Source of the DNA: Haliotis rubra
Taxonomy: Eukaryota
Reading direction: 5' to 3'
NCBI RefSeq assembly: GCF_003918875.1
Contig: NW_025766558.1
Coordinates: 310,001-374,000 of the forward strand
DNA length: 64,000 nt
The position numbers were made by a program. This document shows positions 6,001 to 45,000 of the stretch, piece by piece; positions within the stretch are counted from its first letter, which is position 1, and each line of letters starts with the position of its first letter.

Positions 6001-9000
6001 ACCTACAACTGGTCCGGATCAGTCTTCAGTAGCCTGTACACCCGATCCCGTCAGTCGCATCTTTAACACGACAAGCGTTACGTTACTGTGGGCCAGTTCT
6101 AACCCCGAATCTTCACTTATTCCATGATACAGGATGAGTGAGTGAGTGAGTTTAGTTCTACGCAGCTTTCAGCAATATTCCAGCAATATCACGGCGGGGG
6201 ACACCAGAAATGGGCTTCACACATTGTACCCATGTGGGGAATCAAACCCGGGTCTTCGGCGTGACGAGCGAACGCTTTAACCACTAGGCTACCCCACCGT
6301 CCCGATACAGGATGACACCTACATTACATTAGTTAGAAATACAGTTCGGTCTACCACCATGTAGCGTAATAAAGCACGCTTAAATATAGTACAGGACGCT
6401 TGCGTCCGAGTGCTTTAACGTTAAAATAGGTCAGGACGAAAGTGTACTTTATTACACTATACATGGGGGTAGAGCGAACTTTATTTCTTTTCTGAGATGC
6501 CAAATTTAATACTTACCGAAAACAAACACAAAAACGACGGTGTCGGTGACCTAAATTAACAATCCTCGTTCAGGGCCAACTGATGAGCTCTTCCGGTTAC
6601 GTGTTTGCACCCCTATGTTAAGACGAACGTTGCCGTGAGGGTGTGGGTTCGAATCCCGGACTCAACCCAACAAAAGTACTAGAATCTGCACTTTACTAAG
6701 AAAGTATAATCCCAAATATAACATATGTTACAGGGGCGTAGGAACGGTTTTAAGAGCGGGGGATGGGGGTGGGATGGTGGTGTGTGTGGTTAATTTATGA
6801 AAAGTATTGAAAATCAAAATGAAATTGTAGTTATGGTAAGGTAGATATGGTTTCGTCTTGATCCGTTCCTACGCCCCTGCTGTCACGTGAAAACAAAAGA
6901 CAGGCAGTTTCAAGACGGTTTCCGTTCGGGCTAAATATGTTCTCTATATTATTTCAGTTACCTCTGTGATTAATGTAAACCAAATGGACAATATAAACGC
7001 CGCATTTCTACAACCAACGTAAGTTTAGATCAGTCCATCAAGATGGAGCTGACTATTCACGCGACTTTCCACGGAGGCATTGTGGGAATGTAAACATTGC
7101 GAACGTTGCCGTGTAGCTGTTTAATTGTGACTACCCGAGACATTTTATCCGTCGAAAAATATAAACGTAATGTTTCCATAAGATGATTGCCGTGTGAAGC
7201 ATCTGCAAACCCAAAAACGTCCGTTACCAGGGGTACGCTTGATAACGAGGGGGCAGATGACAACGGCGTAGTGACGTCAATACTGCGTGAAGTCACGCAA
7301 AAAGTGTACTTCAGCGCCTGATAAAGTACTGTCGGCGCCTTAAAATTTGATCTTTCAACAAAGCATCTTAGAACTCATGATGTAGGATGAGACCCACATT
7401 GCATTAGTCCATGATATAGGATGAGACCCACATTGCATTAATCCATGATATAGGATGAGACCCACATTACATTAATCCATGATATAGGATGAGACCCACA
7501 TTACATTAATCCATGATATAGGATGAGACCCACATTACATTAGTTCATGATTAGGATGTGACATACATAGAGGATATTATATGAGTGCCCATGTCATACT
7601 ATGTTTACGACACGAGTACCGAAATTTTGGTATTTCCTGAGCGAGAGCGAGGGATATACCGATATTTAGGCACAAGTGTCGTAAACATAGTATGATATGG
7701 GCACGAATATAATATTCTGTTTATTACCGAAGTCGTCAAATTGAGGAAAATAACCCAATCTAACCCAAAATATTCTACTTTCAAACATAGGCCCTCTACC
7801 CGCCGACGCCGCATGTAGAACGCAACGGCACAGAAGAAACGTGACGTCATAGCATTGTTCATGACGTCACGTCACCATGACAAAGTGATATTTTGCCCTA
7901 GGGCATGGTACGAAAAATATGAACCCCGATACGTTCGCCCTCGTAGGTAATAAATAGCATTAGTACATGATATAGGATGTGACCCACGTTGCATTAGTCC
8001 ATGATATAGGATGTGACCTACATTGCATTAATCCATGATATAGGATGTGACATGCATGGCATTAGTACATGATATAGGGTGTGACCCACATTGTATTAGT
8101 CCATGATATAGGATGTGACATACATTGCATTAGTCCATGATATAGGATGTGACATACATTACATTAATCCATGATATAGGATGTGACCCACATTACATTA
8201 GTCCATGGTATAGAATGGACCTACATTACATTAATCCATGATGTAGGATGTGACCCACATTACATTAATCCATGATATAGGATGTGACCCACATTACATT
8301 AATCCATGATATAGGATGTGACATACATTACATTAATCCATGATATAGGATGTGACCCACATTACATTAGTCCATGGTATAGAATGGACCTACATTACAT
8401 GATATAGGATGTGACCCACATTGCATTAATCCATGATATAGGATGTGACCCACATTGCATTAATCCATGATATAGGATGTGACCCACATTGCATTAATCC
8501 ATGATATAGGATCTGACATACATTACATTAATCCATGATATAGGATGTGACCCACATTACATTAATCCATGATATAGGATGTGACATACATTACATTAAT
8601 CCATGATATAGGATGTGACCCACATTACATTAGTCCATGGTATAGAATGGACCTACATTACATGATGTAGGATGTGACCCACATTACATTAATCCATGAT
8701 ATAGGATGTGACATACATTACATTAATCCATGATATAGGATGTGACCCACATTACATTAGTCCATGGTATAGAATGGACCTACATTACATGATATAGGAT
8801 GTGACCCACATTACATTAATCCATGATGTAGGATGAGACCCACATTACATCAATCCATGTTGTAGGATGTGACCCACATTACATTAATCCATGATATAGG
8901 ATGAGACGCACATTACTTTAATCCATGTTGTAGGATGTGACCCACATTACATTAATCCATGATATAGGATGAGACCCACATTACATTAATCCATGATGTA

Positions 9001-42000: not shown

Positions 42001-45000
42001 ATTTCTCCCATTCTCTAAAGACATGAGACACCATGGCCACTGTCCTTTCATCAATACAGCAGACTGCTGACCAGGTAGAATGTGGTTGTACATTTACCTG
42101 CCAGAATTTCTCGAATATGTGTGACTTGAACAGATGTGGTTGTTTGCCGATAAAGTTTAAGAGATCAAGGCCACTTTGTCTTCTTTCTTCGATTACAGTG
42201 TCATCAAAACGACCTGTTAACAAATACACAACTTTCTATCTCAATACATGTTTCATGATCATCAGAGTATCCAAGCATTCATCTGTAAAAGTCAGGGTTG
42301 GAAATAACTTTAAAATTGTTAGTGTACTCCGGTACAGTGGCACATGTAAAATCACTTGCCCTGATAATTTTTCCACTATACCGGCCGTTTTCTTGTTGAT
42401 ATTTTAAATAAACAACATAATTAACATTGGAATATCAACTGGACACCGGTACAGTGAGATATACAAATTTGCTTGCCCGACAGAAAAAAACACTGGACTT
42501 GGGCGTCGGGCAATGGGTTATTTCCATCCCTGAATAGTACATGGCATAAGACAATGATGAAAGGCCAGAGCATTCCATGTGTATCTGGCTTCAATAGTTT
42601 GAAAGGGTGCATAGTAACACCATAGTAACTAGGTAGTAACACCATAGTAACTAGGTAGTAACACCATAGTAACTAGGTAGTAACACCATAGTAACTAGGT
42701 AGTAACACCATAGTAACTAGGTAGTAACACCATAGTAACTAGGTAGTAACACCATAGTAACTAGGTAGTAACACCATAGTAACTAGGTAGTAACACCATA
42801 GTAACTAGGTAGTAACACCATAGTAACTAGGTAGTAACACCATAGTAATTAGGTAGTAACACCATAGTAACTAGGTAGTAACACCATAGTAACTAGGTAG
42901 TAACACCATAGTAACTAGGTAGTAACACCATAGTAACTAGGTAGTAACACCATAGTAACTAGGTAGTAACACCATAGTAATTAGGTAGTAACACCATAGT
43001 AATTAGGTAGTAACTACTAAACAAATACAGAACATCTGCATAGCCATGCACCAACATAATAACTACATAATACCTAACTAGCAACTACATAGTAACCAGA
43101 TAGTAACTACAAAGTAACTACACAGTATGTACTTGGGGTGACTATTATAAGGGTAATGCTATTTTTGAGGGCATTATCATTTGCAGAAGCCCGAGGTCTG
43201 CCATTAACTGCCCGACGAAGGAGGGCAGTTGAAAAAGACCAAGGGCTTCTGCAAATGATAATGCCCTCAAAAATAGCATTACCGTTATTATTGCTAAAAT
43301 ACATGGAATTTGTGTTGAAAAGAAAAAGGAAACAATGAAGAAATTTGACTGTAAGTTTACCCAAGTCAACTTCTGACGGGGTTGACTGCCCGAATGCAAT
43401 TACATCATCGAACATTCAAGTGACGTCACAACAGAAAGTGACGATATTCGACCTTGGCCTTTGACAATACCATAGCCTACAACATGTCAAACTATGTCAG
43501 TGTTCTGTTTTGGTCCATCAATAGCCTTAATAGTGCAATTGCTAAGGTTAGCACCAACAAGAAAGCCAATATTACCGCTATTTAAAGCGGGAATTCGGGT
43601 TGCTTTGACTTGTTTGACCCAGAATATCTGCCAGTCGAAAGCCAATTAATGTCGAATGAACCGTAAGCCCACGCACCCACTATGACGTCACTTGACAACA
43701 GAACTGATAGTGGCCCGTCGGTAAGGTTGAGCGGTCCAATATCATTTGCAGCGGCCCGCAAATTTCTGATAATGGGAGGGCCGTTTCATGATAATTCCAT
43801 GTATTTTAGCTATAATGACGGGAAACAACTTTTGTAATAGTCTATTGCAACGTACTTCTGCGATAGCGATCGTCTATTGTGACCAACTATTACAATACTA
43901 TTGCAATAGTTTTTACCCCTTTGAATTGTCTCATTTGAAGTAATTTCCCAAATGAATGCATAGTTTATATGAAATAAAAACAAGCTGAAGTAATTTCAGT
44001 CTCTTTTACTTAATGACAAGAAACTTGAAACCCAGATCAAGTTTGTTTAAGAGGTAACAGGGGCGGATAACTCTGAATAAAAGTGAACAAATCTGGTACT
44101 TCCTGTATTTTGAGTTGCGTACTTACTCAACTGAAGTTGATGCATCGATAGTTTTTCGTTTCTACCATCAATTAATTCCTATCGCAGACTCAACAATTGC
44201 AATCCGTCGATAGTTCAATGTATCGTTATAGCCCTAGTATGTACACAGTAACTATATAGCATTTACATATATCTACACAGTATTTACATCGTATATACAG
44301 AAATACTACATAGCATTTACATATATCTACACAGTATTTACATCGTATCTACAAAGTTACTACATAACATTTACATACTAGTAGTAACTACATAATATTT
44401 TTCTTAAAATTGAATTTTTATATTTCCTGACTCCCTGTTACAAATAAGGTGATACAGCCAGGGGATTGTAAAGTCTTACATAAAATCATTAAGGATGTGA
44501 GTTTCAAAAGTGGAATACAGAAAACATTTTTTGAAAAAAAAGACACTACAACACATTCACTCACCAATCACTCACAGAATGTTCACACAACTTACAGTTT
44601 TGGGTTCAACATATCAAGGCTGATTACATGATCATCAAAAGGCAAGTAGAAAGAATTCAACAAGATCACTTGAAAGTTGCTAAATCATGGTATAGCATCC
44701 ACTTTTCATAAAACTTATCTTCTTCACTTTCACTAAAAGATATCTACATATTATTTACACAGTATCTACATTTGCTATGTTACTTACTATGACACAGCAC
44801 CAGAAAAATTGAAATCAGTTATATTTCAACAACATCAACCATTGACTTATAAGACTCAGTGAAGTTCATTGCCTGTAGAATATTGCAGTCTTACCAAACA
44901 GTTTGGGTTTAGCAAACTGTGGGAATTCCTCCCTTCTGTGAAGTGCCTTGTGGAGATTGAACATGGCTTTGTGCAGCTGCTTGAAGTCATTGTAGCGTTT

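What the first reader, a model, noticed from the sequence alone, without database searches (positions are those of the whole stretch)
6335..43815. Three sequence-unrelated elements share one asymmetric architecture: long terminal hairpin, adjacent short IR, internal TGACGTCA
Seen at 6335-7373, 7569-7957 and 43143-43815. Each begins with a ~150-bp palindrome with a GC-rich centre, followed at once by an 11-18-bp motif whose inverse forms the far end. None has an obvious TSD. Each contains perfect CRE palindromes (7272, 7842, 7862, 43421, 43683). Insertion boundaries are clear because two split units of the same minisatellite and one splits a hAT end. Inference: a non-autonomous class mobilised by a tyrosine recombinase (Crypton-like) or a rolling-circle Helentron-like enzyme, possibly dispersing CREB/ATF sites.
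Basis: partly seen in the sequence, partly recalled or inferred. Interest (0 to 1): 0.65.

Follow-up and report, generated by a model that had tools for sequence, protein, structure and literature searches.

The report
Hairpin-ended transposon-like insertions in abalone DNA
Three unrelated short insertions in an abalone genome share the end layout of Helitron2/Helentron rolling-circle transposons, but with an unusually long terminal hairpin and a shared cAMP-response-element motif.

Summary
The window is abalone DNA, not human: an exon is 99% identical to a Haliotis rubra protein.

**What the three insertions share**
- They lie at 6335-7375, about 7569-7955 and 43144-43810, and are unrelated in sequence.
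- Each starts with a 148-156-nt palindrome. DNA folding gives z = -7.4, -13.8 and -19.6.
- The palindrome is followed at once by a 9-18-nt motif whose inverse lies 0-2 nt from the far end.
- Two of them split one 34-mer minisatellite in phase. E1 has no duplication of the target longer than 1 nt.
- All 5 of the 5 TGACGTCA sites in the 64 kb lie inside the three elements, against 0.65 expected.

**What it is**
A short inverted repeat at one end, with its partner subterminal and immediately followed by a terminal hairpin, and no target duplication, is the published layout of Helitron2/Helentron ("HLE2") rolling-circle transposons. The stems here are 46-67 bp instead of 5-10 bp.

**What stays open**
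- Membership is unproven. No abalone genome, Repbase or Dfam was available.
- No second copy and no transposase gene lies in the window.
- The T-T target rule fits only in the flipped orientation.
- The 5' hairpin is not above chance.

My verdict is a probable new variant of a known kind, of moderate interest.

The parts
6335..7375 (.). Element E1 (1041 nt; could equally be 6334-7374), inserted in phase into a 34-mer minisatellite
   Evidence: Minisatellite phase 33 at base 6334 and phase 0 at base 7376, so no consensus position is missing and there is no target duplication above 1 nt
6335..6490 (.). E1 terminal palindrome (156 nt)
   Evidence: DNA fold -33.3 kcal/mol, z -7.35, 0 of 200 shuffles fold as well; arm alignment
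6490..6500 (+). E1 near short inverted repeat TTCTGAGATGC, abutting the foot of the palindrome
   Evidence: Pairs with 7363-7373 at 10 of 11
6624..7113 (.). Probable secondary insertions inside E1: a 14-nt direct repeat CGAACGTTGCCGTG (6624-6637 and 7100-7113) brackets a segment with a tRNA B-box-like GGTTCGAATCC and a 149-nt unit with perfect 17-nt inverted ends (6731-6747 and 6863-6879)
   Evidence: reading them as nested insertions is my inference
7272..7279 (.). E1 CRE palindrome TGACGTCA; the variant TGAAGTCA follows at 7288-7295 inside the palindrome GCGTGAAGTCACGC
7363..7373 (-). E1 far short inverted repeat GCATCTTAGAA, 2 nt from the element end
7569..7955 (.). Element E2 (about 387 nt; the ends can slide by up to 3 nt because ATA stands at both junctions), inserted in phase into the same minisatellite
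7569..7720 (.). E2 terminal palindrome (152 nt)
   Evidence: Arms 7571-7637 and 7652-7718, 67 nt, 84% complementary; fold -46.7 kcal/mol, z -13.82
7720..7728 (+). E2 near short inverted repeat TTTATTACC
   Evidence: Exact inverse at 7946-7954; 15 nt at 87%
7839..7872 (.). E2 pair of CREs (7842-7849 and 7862-7869) forming a perfect 12-nt inverted repeat ACGTGACGTCAT with a 10-nt spacer
7946..7954 (-). E2 far short inverted repeat GGTAATAAA, 0-2 nt from the end
43144..43810 (.). Element E3 (667 nt; the right end may reach 43824)
   Evidence: the ends are not fixed by an independent empty site
43144..43291 (.). E3 terminal palindrome (148 nt)
   Evidence: 56-nt arms, 93% complementary; fold -64.1 kcal/mol, z -19.60
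43293..43310 (+). E3 near short inverted repeat GCTAAAATACATGGAATT
   Evidence: 18 nt exact inverse at 43793-43810
43416..43428 (.). E3 first CRE (43421-43428), left arm of a perfect 13-nt inverted repeat TCAAGTGACGTCA
43683..43695 (.). E3 second CRE (43683-43690), right arm of the 13-nt inverted repeat
43728..43758 (+). Partial copy of the inner left palindrome arm of E3, lying just inside the far inverted repeat
   Evidence: Local alignment score 31, reached by 0 of 1000 shuffles; 22 nt at 86% (D17)
43793..43810 (-). E3 far short inverted repeat
43811..43824 (.). 14 nt (TATAATGACGGGAA) that continue the inverted repeat into the outer palindrome arm; either the true end of E3 or a target that resembles it
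   Evidence: The 32-nt repeat matches at 29 of 32
6118..9101 (.). Host 34-mer minisatellite interrupted by a SINE, E1 and E2
   Evidence: Tandem Repeats Finder rows 7376-7562 and 7958-9101; the left extent was read
43133..44236 (.). hAT-like host insertion that holds E3, flanked by an 8/9-nt duplication (A)GTATGTAC
   Evidence: AGTATGTAC occurs only at 43124-43132 and 44236-44244; removing the segment restores the 11-mer array phase (read)

Best explanation
E1, E2 and E3 are most likely non-autonomous rolling-circle transposons of the Helitron2/Helentron (HLE2) type, that is HINE-like elements, belonging to three unrelated families of the abalone genome.

**Orientation.** Read on the minus strand, each has a short terminal inverted repeat 0-2 nt from its 5' end. 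Each also has an inverted copy of that repeat near the 3' end, followed directly by a terminal stem-loop. The difference from described elements is that the stem-loop is a 148-156-nt palindrome.

**Proposed mechanism (inferred, not shown).** A RepHel transposase supplied by an autonomous relative elsewhere in the genome nicks at the end that carries only the repeat and unwinds the strand. It terminates at the repeat-plus-hairpin signal. The released strand closes into a circle. At the circle junction the two short repeats pair and lengthen the hairpin stem. The circle then integrates without duplicating the target.

**The GTGACGTCA sites.** They lie 88-106 nt inside the repeat-only end in all three elements. 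They are most simply host ATF/CREB-type bZIP sites. They could be promoter or enhancer modules inherited from the 5' region of autonomous parents, or sites that help open the DNA.

**Shown:** the anatomy, the in-phase insertion, the absence of a target duplication in E1, and the motif enrichment. **Inferred:** the enzyme, the circle and the role of the CRE.
For: - **Real palindromes** at one terminus of each element: z = -7.35, -13.82 and -19.60.
- **Short repeats of 11, 9 and 18 nt.** One abuts the palindrome foot. The other lies 2, 0-2 and 0 nt from the far end.
- **Matching published definitions.**
  - Helitron2: 8-15-bp asymmetric terminal repeats, the 5' one 0-2 bp from the end, the 3' one immediately upstream of the hairpin (PMC3627910, passages).
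  - HINE: 12-15-bp subterminal repeats, 2-4 nt from the 5' end (PMC4067079, passages).
  - Canonical HLE2: 12-16-nt repeats plus a stem-loop after the right repeat (PMC11417382, passages).
- **E1 is an in-phase insertion** with no target duplication above 1 nt. That excludes the cut-and-paste superfamilies that make standard duplications.
- **Joined ends extend the hairpin.** When the ends were joined in a script, the far repeat paired with the near repeat at 11 of 11, 9 of 9 and 18 of 18 bases. The gain was about 10-20 kcal/mol. This is what a circular intermediate would give.
- **Helentron-derived elements are documented in a mollusc**, the oyster, without target duplication and preferring T-rich sites (PMC7492417, passages).
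- **Each element can be read as lying between T and T** (or T and C) on the plus strand.
Against: - **No second copy** of any element in the 64 kb. No genome was available, so mobility as a family is unproven.
- **No RepHel gene in the window.** The 16 longest frames were scanned, and 150 of the 236 open frames of 65 aa or more. The 86 left out were mostly satellite-derived frames and frames in the host gene.
- **Hairpin size is far outside the described range.** Stems are 46-67 bp and the subterminal repeat lies 148-156 nt from the end. Described elements have 5-10-bp palindromes and a distance of 20-60 nt.
- **The 5' hairpin said to involve the 5' repeat is not above chance**: z = 0.43, -0.25 and -0.22.
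- **The T-T rule fails in the canonical orientation.** It fits only if the hairpin end is called 5', the 'HLE2-reverse' layout. In the canonical orientation the flanks of E1 are G/A and A.
- **E2 could have a 1-3-nt duplication**.
- **The ends of E3 are not independently fixed.**
- **A small related hairpin at the far end** is clear only in E3 (0 of 1000 shuffles). It is marginal in E1 (18 of 1000) and absent in E2 (733 of 1000).
Confidence: 0.5

Rival explanations
1. Crypton-like or other tyrosine-recombinase elements. A double-stranded circle carrying one long palindrome as its attachment site recombines with the target, opening the palindrome stem 9-18 bp from its base.
For: E1 has no target duplication. 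The joined ends form one continuous palindrome. The right flank of E3, TATAATGACGGGAA, resembles the element's own palindrome foot (29 of 32 over the extended repeat), as an attachment-site-like target would. E2 holds a 12-10-12 inverted-repeat site that looks like a recombinase core site.
Against: The passage seen in PMC3627910 says that elements using tyrosine or serine recombinases lack terminal inverted repeats, and it names short terminal direct repeats for Crypton. No consistent direct repeats are seen here. The TTAGAA at both ends of E1 cannot be a duplicated core, because the minisatellite is seamless without it. No recombinase domain was found in the window. The flanks of E1 and E2 show no convincing similarity to their own ends (by eye).
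Confidence: 0.1
2. An undescribed hairpin-ended replicon or transposon that uses a different HUH enzyme, for example parvovirus-like rolling-hairpin handling. The palindrome would be a telomere-like hairpin, the adjacent motif a 'D-sequence' repeated in inverse at the other end, and the far-end hairpin would have been lost.
For: Palindromes of 148-156 nt with a more GC-rich, sub-structured centre are far larger than described HLE2 stem-loops. E3 carries a 14-nt stub of the palindrome arm beyond the far repeat and a degenerate arm copy inside it. From memory, not from any call: parvoviral hairpin origins lie next to ATF/CREB-type sites.
Against: E1 and E2 end 0-2 nt after the far repeat with no trace of a second hairpin. 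The elements are 0.4-1 kb with no coding capacity by Pfam. No Rep-like gene lies in the window. The comparison rests on my recollection of virus biology, not on a test.
Confidence: 0.1
3. Ordinary short-TIR miniature elements to which a foldback was added secondarily at one end, by an inverted duplication of the end or an adjacent foldback insertion. The three cases would then be a reader's selection rather than a class.
For: The E3 repeat extends 13-14 nt into the palindrome arm. Pieces of the arm recur near the far end, as in elements with sub-repeated long ends. E2 could have a 1-3-nt duplication. The window holds other plain foldback palindromes, at 3868-3984, 23206-23481 and 33686-33790.
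Against: E1 has no duplication. In all 3 of 3 cases the palindrome lies outside the repeat, abuts it within 0-1 nt and reaches exactly to the insertion boundary. The three plain foldbacks in the window show no such partner beyond chance level. Three unrelated sequences share the layout and the CRE motif.
Confidence: 0.15
4. Not mobile: captured filler DNA at breaks in unstable tandem arrays, with chance palindromes and chance repeats.
For: Each is single-copy in the window. All three sit in or next to tandem arrays. An 11-mer repeat alone is at chance level.
Against: The folds score z = -7 to -20. The repeats coincide with independently defined boundaries. 5 of 5 TGACGTCA sites lie in 3.3% of the window.
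Confidence: 0.03

Closest known systems
Helitron2/Helentron (HLE2) non-autonomous elements: HINEs, DINE-1, Cg_HINE
   Same: Short (9-18 nt) asymmetric terminal inverted repeats; one is 0-2 nt from one terminus, the other is subterminal and immediately followed by a terminal stem-loop. No target duplication (E1). Sizes of 0.4-1 kb. Insertion into repeat-rich DNA. Relatives documented in a mollusc.
   Different: The terminal stem-loop is a 148-156-nt palindrome with 46-67-bp arms, against 5-10-bp palindromes and a 20-60-nt distance to the end. There is no significant 5' hairpin. There is no internal microsatellite or tandem array. T-T flanks fit only the flipped orientation. A shared GTGACGTCA motif was not linked to such elements in any paper found.
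'HLE2-reverse' elements (FoHeli3-5, proto-Helentron)
   Same: [quoted passage not shown] This matches the plus-strand reading, in which T-T or T-C flanks are possible.
   Different: 'Reverse' is defined relative to the transposase reading frame, which these elements lack. The elements named in that passage come from Fusarium and Phytophthora. I did not see hairpin sizes (supplementary figures are closed).
Cryptons (tyrosine-recombinase transposons)
   Same: No target duplication; a circular intermediate would fit the joined-end palindrome.
   Different: The passage seen says that elements using tyrosine or serine recombinases lack terminal inverted repeats, and it names short terminal direct repeats for Crypton. 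Here there are inverted repeats plus a long hairpin and no consistent direct repeats.
Foldback-type miniature inverted-repeat elements
   Same: A long, nearly perfect palindrome of about 150 nt.
   Different: Here the palindrome is only one end of a longer unit, whose other end matches the sequence beside the palindrome rather than the palindrome itself. E1 has no duplication.

Membership tests
Helitron2/Helentron (HLE2) non-autonomous element | Short terminal inverted repeats (8-18 nt), one of them 0-4 nt from the 5' terminus | tested here: met
   E1: 11 nt (10 of 11), 2 nt from the end. E2: 9 nt exact, 0-2 nt from the end. E3: 18 nt exact, at the end, or 14 nt from it if E3 reaches 43824. 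Definitions.
Helitron2/Helentron (HLE2) non-autonomous element | The second repeat is subterminal and immediately upstream of a 3'-terminal stem-loop, 20-60 nt from the end | tested here: inconclusive
   The topology is met in 3 of 3: the repeat abuts the palindrome, and the palindrome reaches the boundary. The distance is 148-156 nt and the stems are 46-67 bp, well outside the described 20-60 nt and 5-10 bp.
Helitron2/Helentron (HLE2) non-autonomous element | A 5' hairpin formed by the 5' repeat with downstream bases (Helitron2; the 'IR' of DINE-1/Cg_HINE) | tested here: not met
   Folding the first 60 nt on the minus strand gives z = 0.43, -0.25 and -0.22, no better than shuffles. Only E1 has a small imperfect stem touching the repeat.
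Helitron2/Helentron (HLE2) non-autonomous element | No target site duplication | tested here: met
   E1 is seamless in the minisatellite phase. E2 is ambiguous at 0-3 nt. E3 is not testable.
Helitron2/Helentron (HLE2) non-autonomous element | Insertion between T and T (Helentron) or T and T/C (Helitron2), on the strand with the hairpin at the 3' end | tested here: inconclusive
   On the plus strand (hairpin at 5'): E1 T|C or T|T, E2 T|T possible with one extra base, E3 T|T. On the strand with the hairpin at 3', E1 is flanked by G/A and A. Boundaries can slide by 1-3 nt.
Helitron2/Helentron (HLE2) non-autonomous element | A multi-copy family sharing its termini with an autonomous RepHel (with or without endonuclease) element | not testable with these tools
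   No eukaryotic genome, Repbase or Dfam was at hand. There are 0 further copies in the window and no RepHel domain in the frames scanned.
Crypton | No terminal inverted repeats; short direct repeats at the termini; a tyrosine-recombinase partner | tested here: not met
   Inverted repeats and a hairpin are present. No consistent direct repeats; the TTAGAA of E1 is not compatible with the empty site. No recombinase in the window, but a partner elsewhere was not testable.
Cut-and-paste TIR superfamilies (hAT, Tc1/mariner, PIF, piggyBac and others) | A target site duplication of fixed length flanking symmetric terminal inverted repeats | tested here: not met
   E1 has no duplication above 1 nt, and the repeats are asymmetric with respect to the ends.

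The most novel reading that the evidence does not exclude
The three elements represent an undescribed lineage of hairpin-ended mobile DNA in gastropods that makes no target duplication. Its recognition signal is a roughly 150-nt terminal cruciform that is cut asymmetrically in its stem. Unrelated families have converged on GTGACGTCA because a host ATF/CREB-type factor, or a shared DNA-binding domain of the enzyme, is needed for mobilisation. The enzyme could be a divergent HLE2 RepHel or another HUH or recombinase protein. 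As a by-product, the elements would seed cAMP-response elements across the genome.
Probability: 0.15. Interest if true: 0.75.

Novelty: new variant of a known kind. Interest (0 to 1): 0.4.

Why it matters
If the elements prove multi-copy and RepHel-associated, they would extend the known range of HLE2 termination signals from short stem-loops to 150-nt cruciforms. Annotation tools that look for short stem-loops or for repeats 11-18 nt long would place the element boundary wrongly.

The shared GTGACGTCA motif in three otherwise unrelated families is the more interesting part. It suggests either dependence on a host bZIP factor or transposon-borne spread of CREB/ATF sites in a mollusc, a group in which CREB signalling is well studied.

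As it stands the evidence is three single copies in one window, so the finding is a lead and not a result.

Tried and rejected
- **Copies in the window.** blastn of E1-E3, the interior of E1 and the hAT-like remainder against the window gave none. Copy number, empty sites and partner elements therefore stayed unchecked.
- **Collections not used.** Repbase, Dfam and abalone assemblies are not among the tools. The prokaryote-only collection and the phage, plasmid and E. coli collections were not queried, because they cannot hold abalone repeats.
- **RNA families.** Rfam at gathering threshold gave 0 matches in the window, and the tRNA scan gave 0. At E up to 1, only generic long-hairpin microRNA precursor models matched the E2 and E3 palindromes, at 22-57 bits against gathering scores of 62.6-200. 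I read those as hairpin shape only. Hammerhead ribozyme or retrozyme: no hit.
- **'A small hairpin related to the big one at the far end of all three.'** I proposed this by eye. The test supports it for E3 only: 0, 18 and 733 of 1000 shuffles reach the observed score for E3, E1 and E2. Far-end folds give z = -1.43 (E1), -3.11 (E2, owing to its CRE inverted repeat) and -0.52 (E3). Dropped as a common feature.
- **CpG richness as a mark of youth.** The elements have CpG observed/expected 1.14, against 0.39 for the window. This is regional: 2701-8200 has 1.01 and 43301-44500 has 0.88. It is not element-specific.
- **Shared motifs other than the CRE.** There are none of 8 nt or more. The count of shared 7-mers (5) equals the null mean of 5.95.
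- **Standard duplications.** TA or TTAGAA for E1 is rejected by the minisatellite phase.
- **First boundary script.** The script scored end gaps wrongly. I discarded its output and replaced it with the phase test.
- **Papers.** No paper in the searched library links TGACGTCA with Helitron-type ends. None describes such elements in Haliotis. None describes long palindromes in Helentrons.

Full report
**Source and scope.** The window is molluscan, not human. A 504-aa open frame at 31960-33474 on the minus strand is 99% identical to 'ribosomal protein S6 kinase delta-1-like [Haliotis rubra]', and 80-88% identical to two other abalone species. I searched one exon-sized frame and joined no exons. 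The window has one N run (61272-61411), which I left alone. No eukaryotic genome, Repbase or Dfam is among the tools. Everything about copy number and partner elements therefore remains unchecked.

**Checking the observation: palindromes and repeats.** All three palindromes are real.
- E1, 6335-6490: -33.3 kcal/mol, z -7.35.
- E2, 7569-7720: arms of 67 nt at 84%; -46.7 kcal/mol, z -13.82.
- E3, 43144-43291: arms of 56 nt at 93%; -64.1 kcal/mol, z -19.60.

In each case 0 of 200 shuffles fold as well. The centres are only moderately richer in G+C: 0.45-0.53 against 0.37 in the arms.

Directly after each palindrome comes a short motif whose inverse lies at the far end.
- E1: 6490-6500 against 7363-7373, 10 of 11.
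- E2: 7720-7728 against 7946-7954, 9 exact (15 nt at 87% by the tool).
- E3: 43293-43310 against 43793-43810, 18 exact.

As a control I ran the same test on the wrong side of each palindrome and on both sides of five other palindromes in the window. It gave 0-4 hits of 11 nt with up to 1 mismatch within 3 kb. An 11-mer alone is therefore at chance level. What makes E1 and E2 significant is that the far copy ends 0-2 nt from a boundary fixed independently by the minisatellite.

**Checking the observation: boundaries.** A 34-mer minisatellite runs from about 6118 to 9101. It is interrupted by a SINE (6138-6303, with the 12-nt duplication GATACAGGATGA), then by E1, then by E2.
- **E1.** The repeat phase is 33 at base 6334 and 0 at base 7376. 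E1 is therefore 6335-7375 (or 6334-7374), and the target was not duplicated by more than one base. This rules out the cut-and-paste superfamilies that make standard duplications.
- **E2.** The phase also resumes correctly across E2. However, ATA stands at both junctions and the target unit is one base irregular, so a duplication of 0-3 nt cannot be resolved.
- **E3.** It begins 11 nt inside a 1.1-kb insertion (43133-44235/6). That insertion's flanking word AGTATGTAC occurs only twice in the window, and removing the insertion restores an 11-mer array. An 8/9-nt duplication and ends reading TTGGGG...GCCCTA make 'hAT-like' plausible; the typical hAT end motif is from memory. No second copy exists in the window, so the limits of E3 itself are not independently fixed.

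**E3 right end.** The inverted repeat of E3 continues for 14 nt beyond the exact 18. Over 32 nt it matches at 29 of 32. Either E3 ends at 43824 with a stub of the palindrome arm, or its target resembled its own hairpin foot. I could not decide which.

**Checking the observation: the CRE motif.** TGACGTCA occurs 5 times in 64 kb, and all 5 lie inside the three elements, which make up 3.3% of the window. Whole-window dinucleotide shuffles give 0.65, and 0 of 100 reach 5. Shuffles of each element alone give 0.007-0.0135, against 1, 2 and 2 observed. The three elements share no other word of 8 nt or more. The longest shared word is GTGACGTCA, and blastn finds no similarity between the elements.
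- In E2 the two sites form a perfect 12-10-12 inverted repeat.
- In E3 they are the cores of a perfect 13-nt inverted repeat 254 nt apart.
- In E1 a variant, TGAAGTCA, follows 8 nt after the perfect site.
- In each element the site nearest the repeat-only end lies 88-106 nt from that end.

**What it is.** The layout has four parts: a short inverted repeat at one terminus, its partner subterminal, a terminal stem-loop directly outside that partner, and no target duplication. This is the published definition of the Helitron2/Helentron group, now called HLE2.
[quoted passage not shown] The 5' one is 0-2 bp from the end. The 3' one is 20-30 bp from the end, 'immediately upstream from the hairpin'.
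- Thomas et al. [quoted passage not shown]
- The HELIANO paper (PMC11417382, passages) gives 12-16-nt repeats with a stem-loop after the right repeat. It also describes an 'HLE2-reverse' form with the stem-loop upstream of the left repeat.
- Oyster Cg_HINEs (PMC7492417, passages) show that such elements are common in a mollusc.

When the two ends of each element are joined in a script, the far repeat pairs with the near repeat at 11 of 11, 9 of 9 and 18 of 18 bases. The stem lengthens by about 10-20 kcal/mol. That is the structure a circular rolling-circle intermediate would have.

**What does not fit.**
- The stem-loop is five to ten times longer than any described in the passages I saw.
- The 5' hairpin that Helitron2 and DINE-1 form with the 5' repeat is not above chance: z = 0.43, -0.25 and -0.22.
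- T-T or T-C flanks can be read for all three elements, but only on the strand where the hairpin is at the 5' end. In the canonical orientation E1 is flanked by G/A and A.
- There is no transposase in the window. Pfam found no RepHel and no tyrosine recombinase in the 16 longest frames, nor in 150 of the 236 frames of 65 aa or more. The 86 frames not scanned were mainly satellite-derived or in the host kinase gene.
- An idea of mine did not survive testing. I had proposed that each far end carries a small hairpin related to the large one. It holds for E3 only.

**Mechanism.** The best-supported reading, at probability about 0.5, is a set of non-autonomous HLE2-type rolling-circle elements mobilised in trans. 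The long cruciform serves as the termination signal, and the paired short repeats close the circle junction. The shared GTGACGTCA is most simply a host ATF/CREB site; that consensus is recalled, not tested. It may be a promoter module inherited from autonomous parents, or a site that assists transposition. These steps are inferred.

The rivals and my confidence in each:
- a tyrosine-recombinase circle, 0.1;
- another hairpin-handling HUH system, 0.1;
- ordinary short-TIR elements with a secondary foldback, 0.15;
- immobile filler DNA, 0.03.

**Novelty.** The architecture itself is known. The roughly 150-nt terminal palindrome and a CRE motif common to unrelated families were not found in the searched literature. 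Supplementary tables and figures of the HLE2 papers, which list termini, were closed and may bear on this. I rate the finding a new variant of a known kind, interest 0.4, pending a genome-wide copy search.

Noticed in passing
window 5400-5560 (+) and 6138-6303 (-): Two copies of a tRNA-derived SINE with a (GAGT)n-like tail. The second is flanked by a perfect 12-nt duplication, GATACAGGATGA (6126-6137 and 6304-6315), inside the same minisatellite as E1 and E2. ARAGORN calls neither copy a tRNA.
   Followed up: partly
window 43133-44236: A 1.1-kb insertion with an 8/9-nt duplication (A)GTATGTAC in an 11-mer array. It looks hAT-like from the duplication length and its TTGGGG...GCCCTA ends. Without E3 it would be about 437 nt and non-coding. 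There is no second copy in the window.
   Followed up: partly
window 6624-7113: Inside E1, a 14-nt direct repeat (CGAACGTTGCCGTG) brackets 462 nt that begin with a tRNA B-box-like GGTTCGAATCC. The same segment includes a 149-nt unit with perfect 17-nt inverted ends CAGGGGCGTAGGAACGG (6731-6879). These are probably nested later insertions, so E1 was originally about 560 nt.
   Followed up: no
window 11595-12088: A 24-nt tandem repeat arranged in blocks of opposite orientation (forward, reverse, forward), giving nested palindromes of up to about 300 nt.
   Followed up: no
window 2701-8200 and 43301-44500: Mosaic CpG content. These stretches have CpG observed/expected of about 0.9-1.0, while the window median for 400-nt windows is 0.32. 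Ten other stretches of 400-1500 nt also reach 0.8 in at least one window. This is consistent with mosaic methylation. E1, E2 and E3 sit in the undepleted stretches.
   Followed up: partly
window 3868-3984, 23206-23481, 33686-33790: Three plain foldback palindromes (31-38-nt arms) that look like ordinary miniature inverted-repeat elements. None has an adjacent repeat partner above chance level.
   Followed up: partly
window 10102-10779, 27600-30000, 40000-41900, 42500-43130, 44995-46097: The window is unusually rich in minisatellites, with periods of 31, about 74, 52, 11/22 and 45 nt. Several give long spurious open frames.
   Followed up: no
window 16012-16245 (+), 31960-37311 (-), 49255-50448 (+), 61567-62058 (-): Host gene pieces: a radial-spoke-head-like exon; the RPS6KC1-like gene (kinase and MIT domain frames); and three Arf-family exon frames. 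There is also a reverse-transcriptase fragment next to the N run.
   Followed up: partly
window 7569-7722 and 43137-43299: The E2 and E3 palindromes score E = 1e-8 to 6e-8 against plant microRNA precursor models, far below the gathering scores. This shows only that, if transcribed, they would form long hairpin RNAs of the kind that can feed small-RNA pathways.
   Followed up: no
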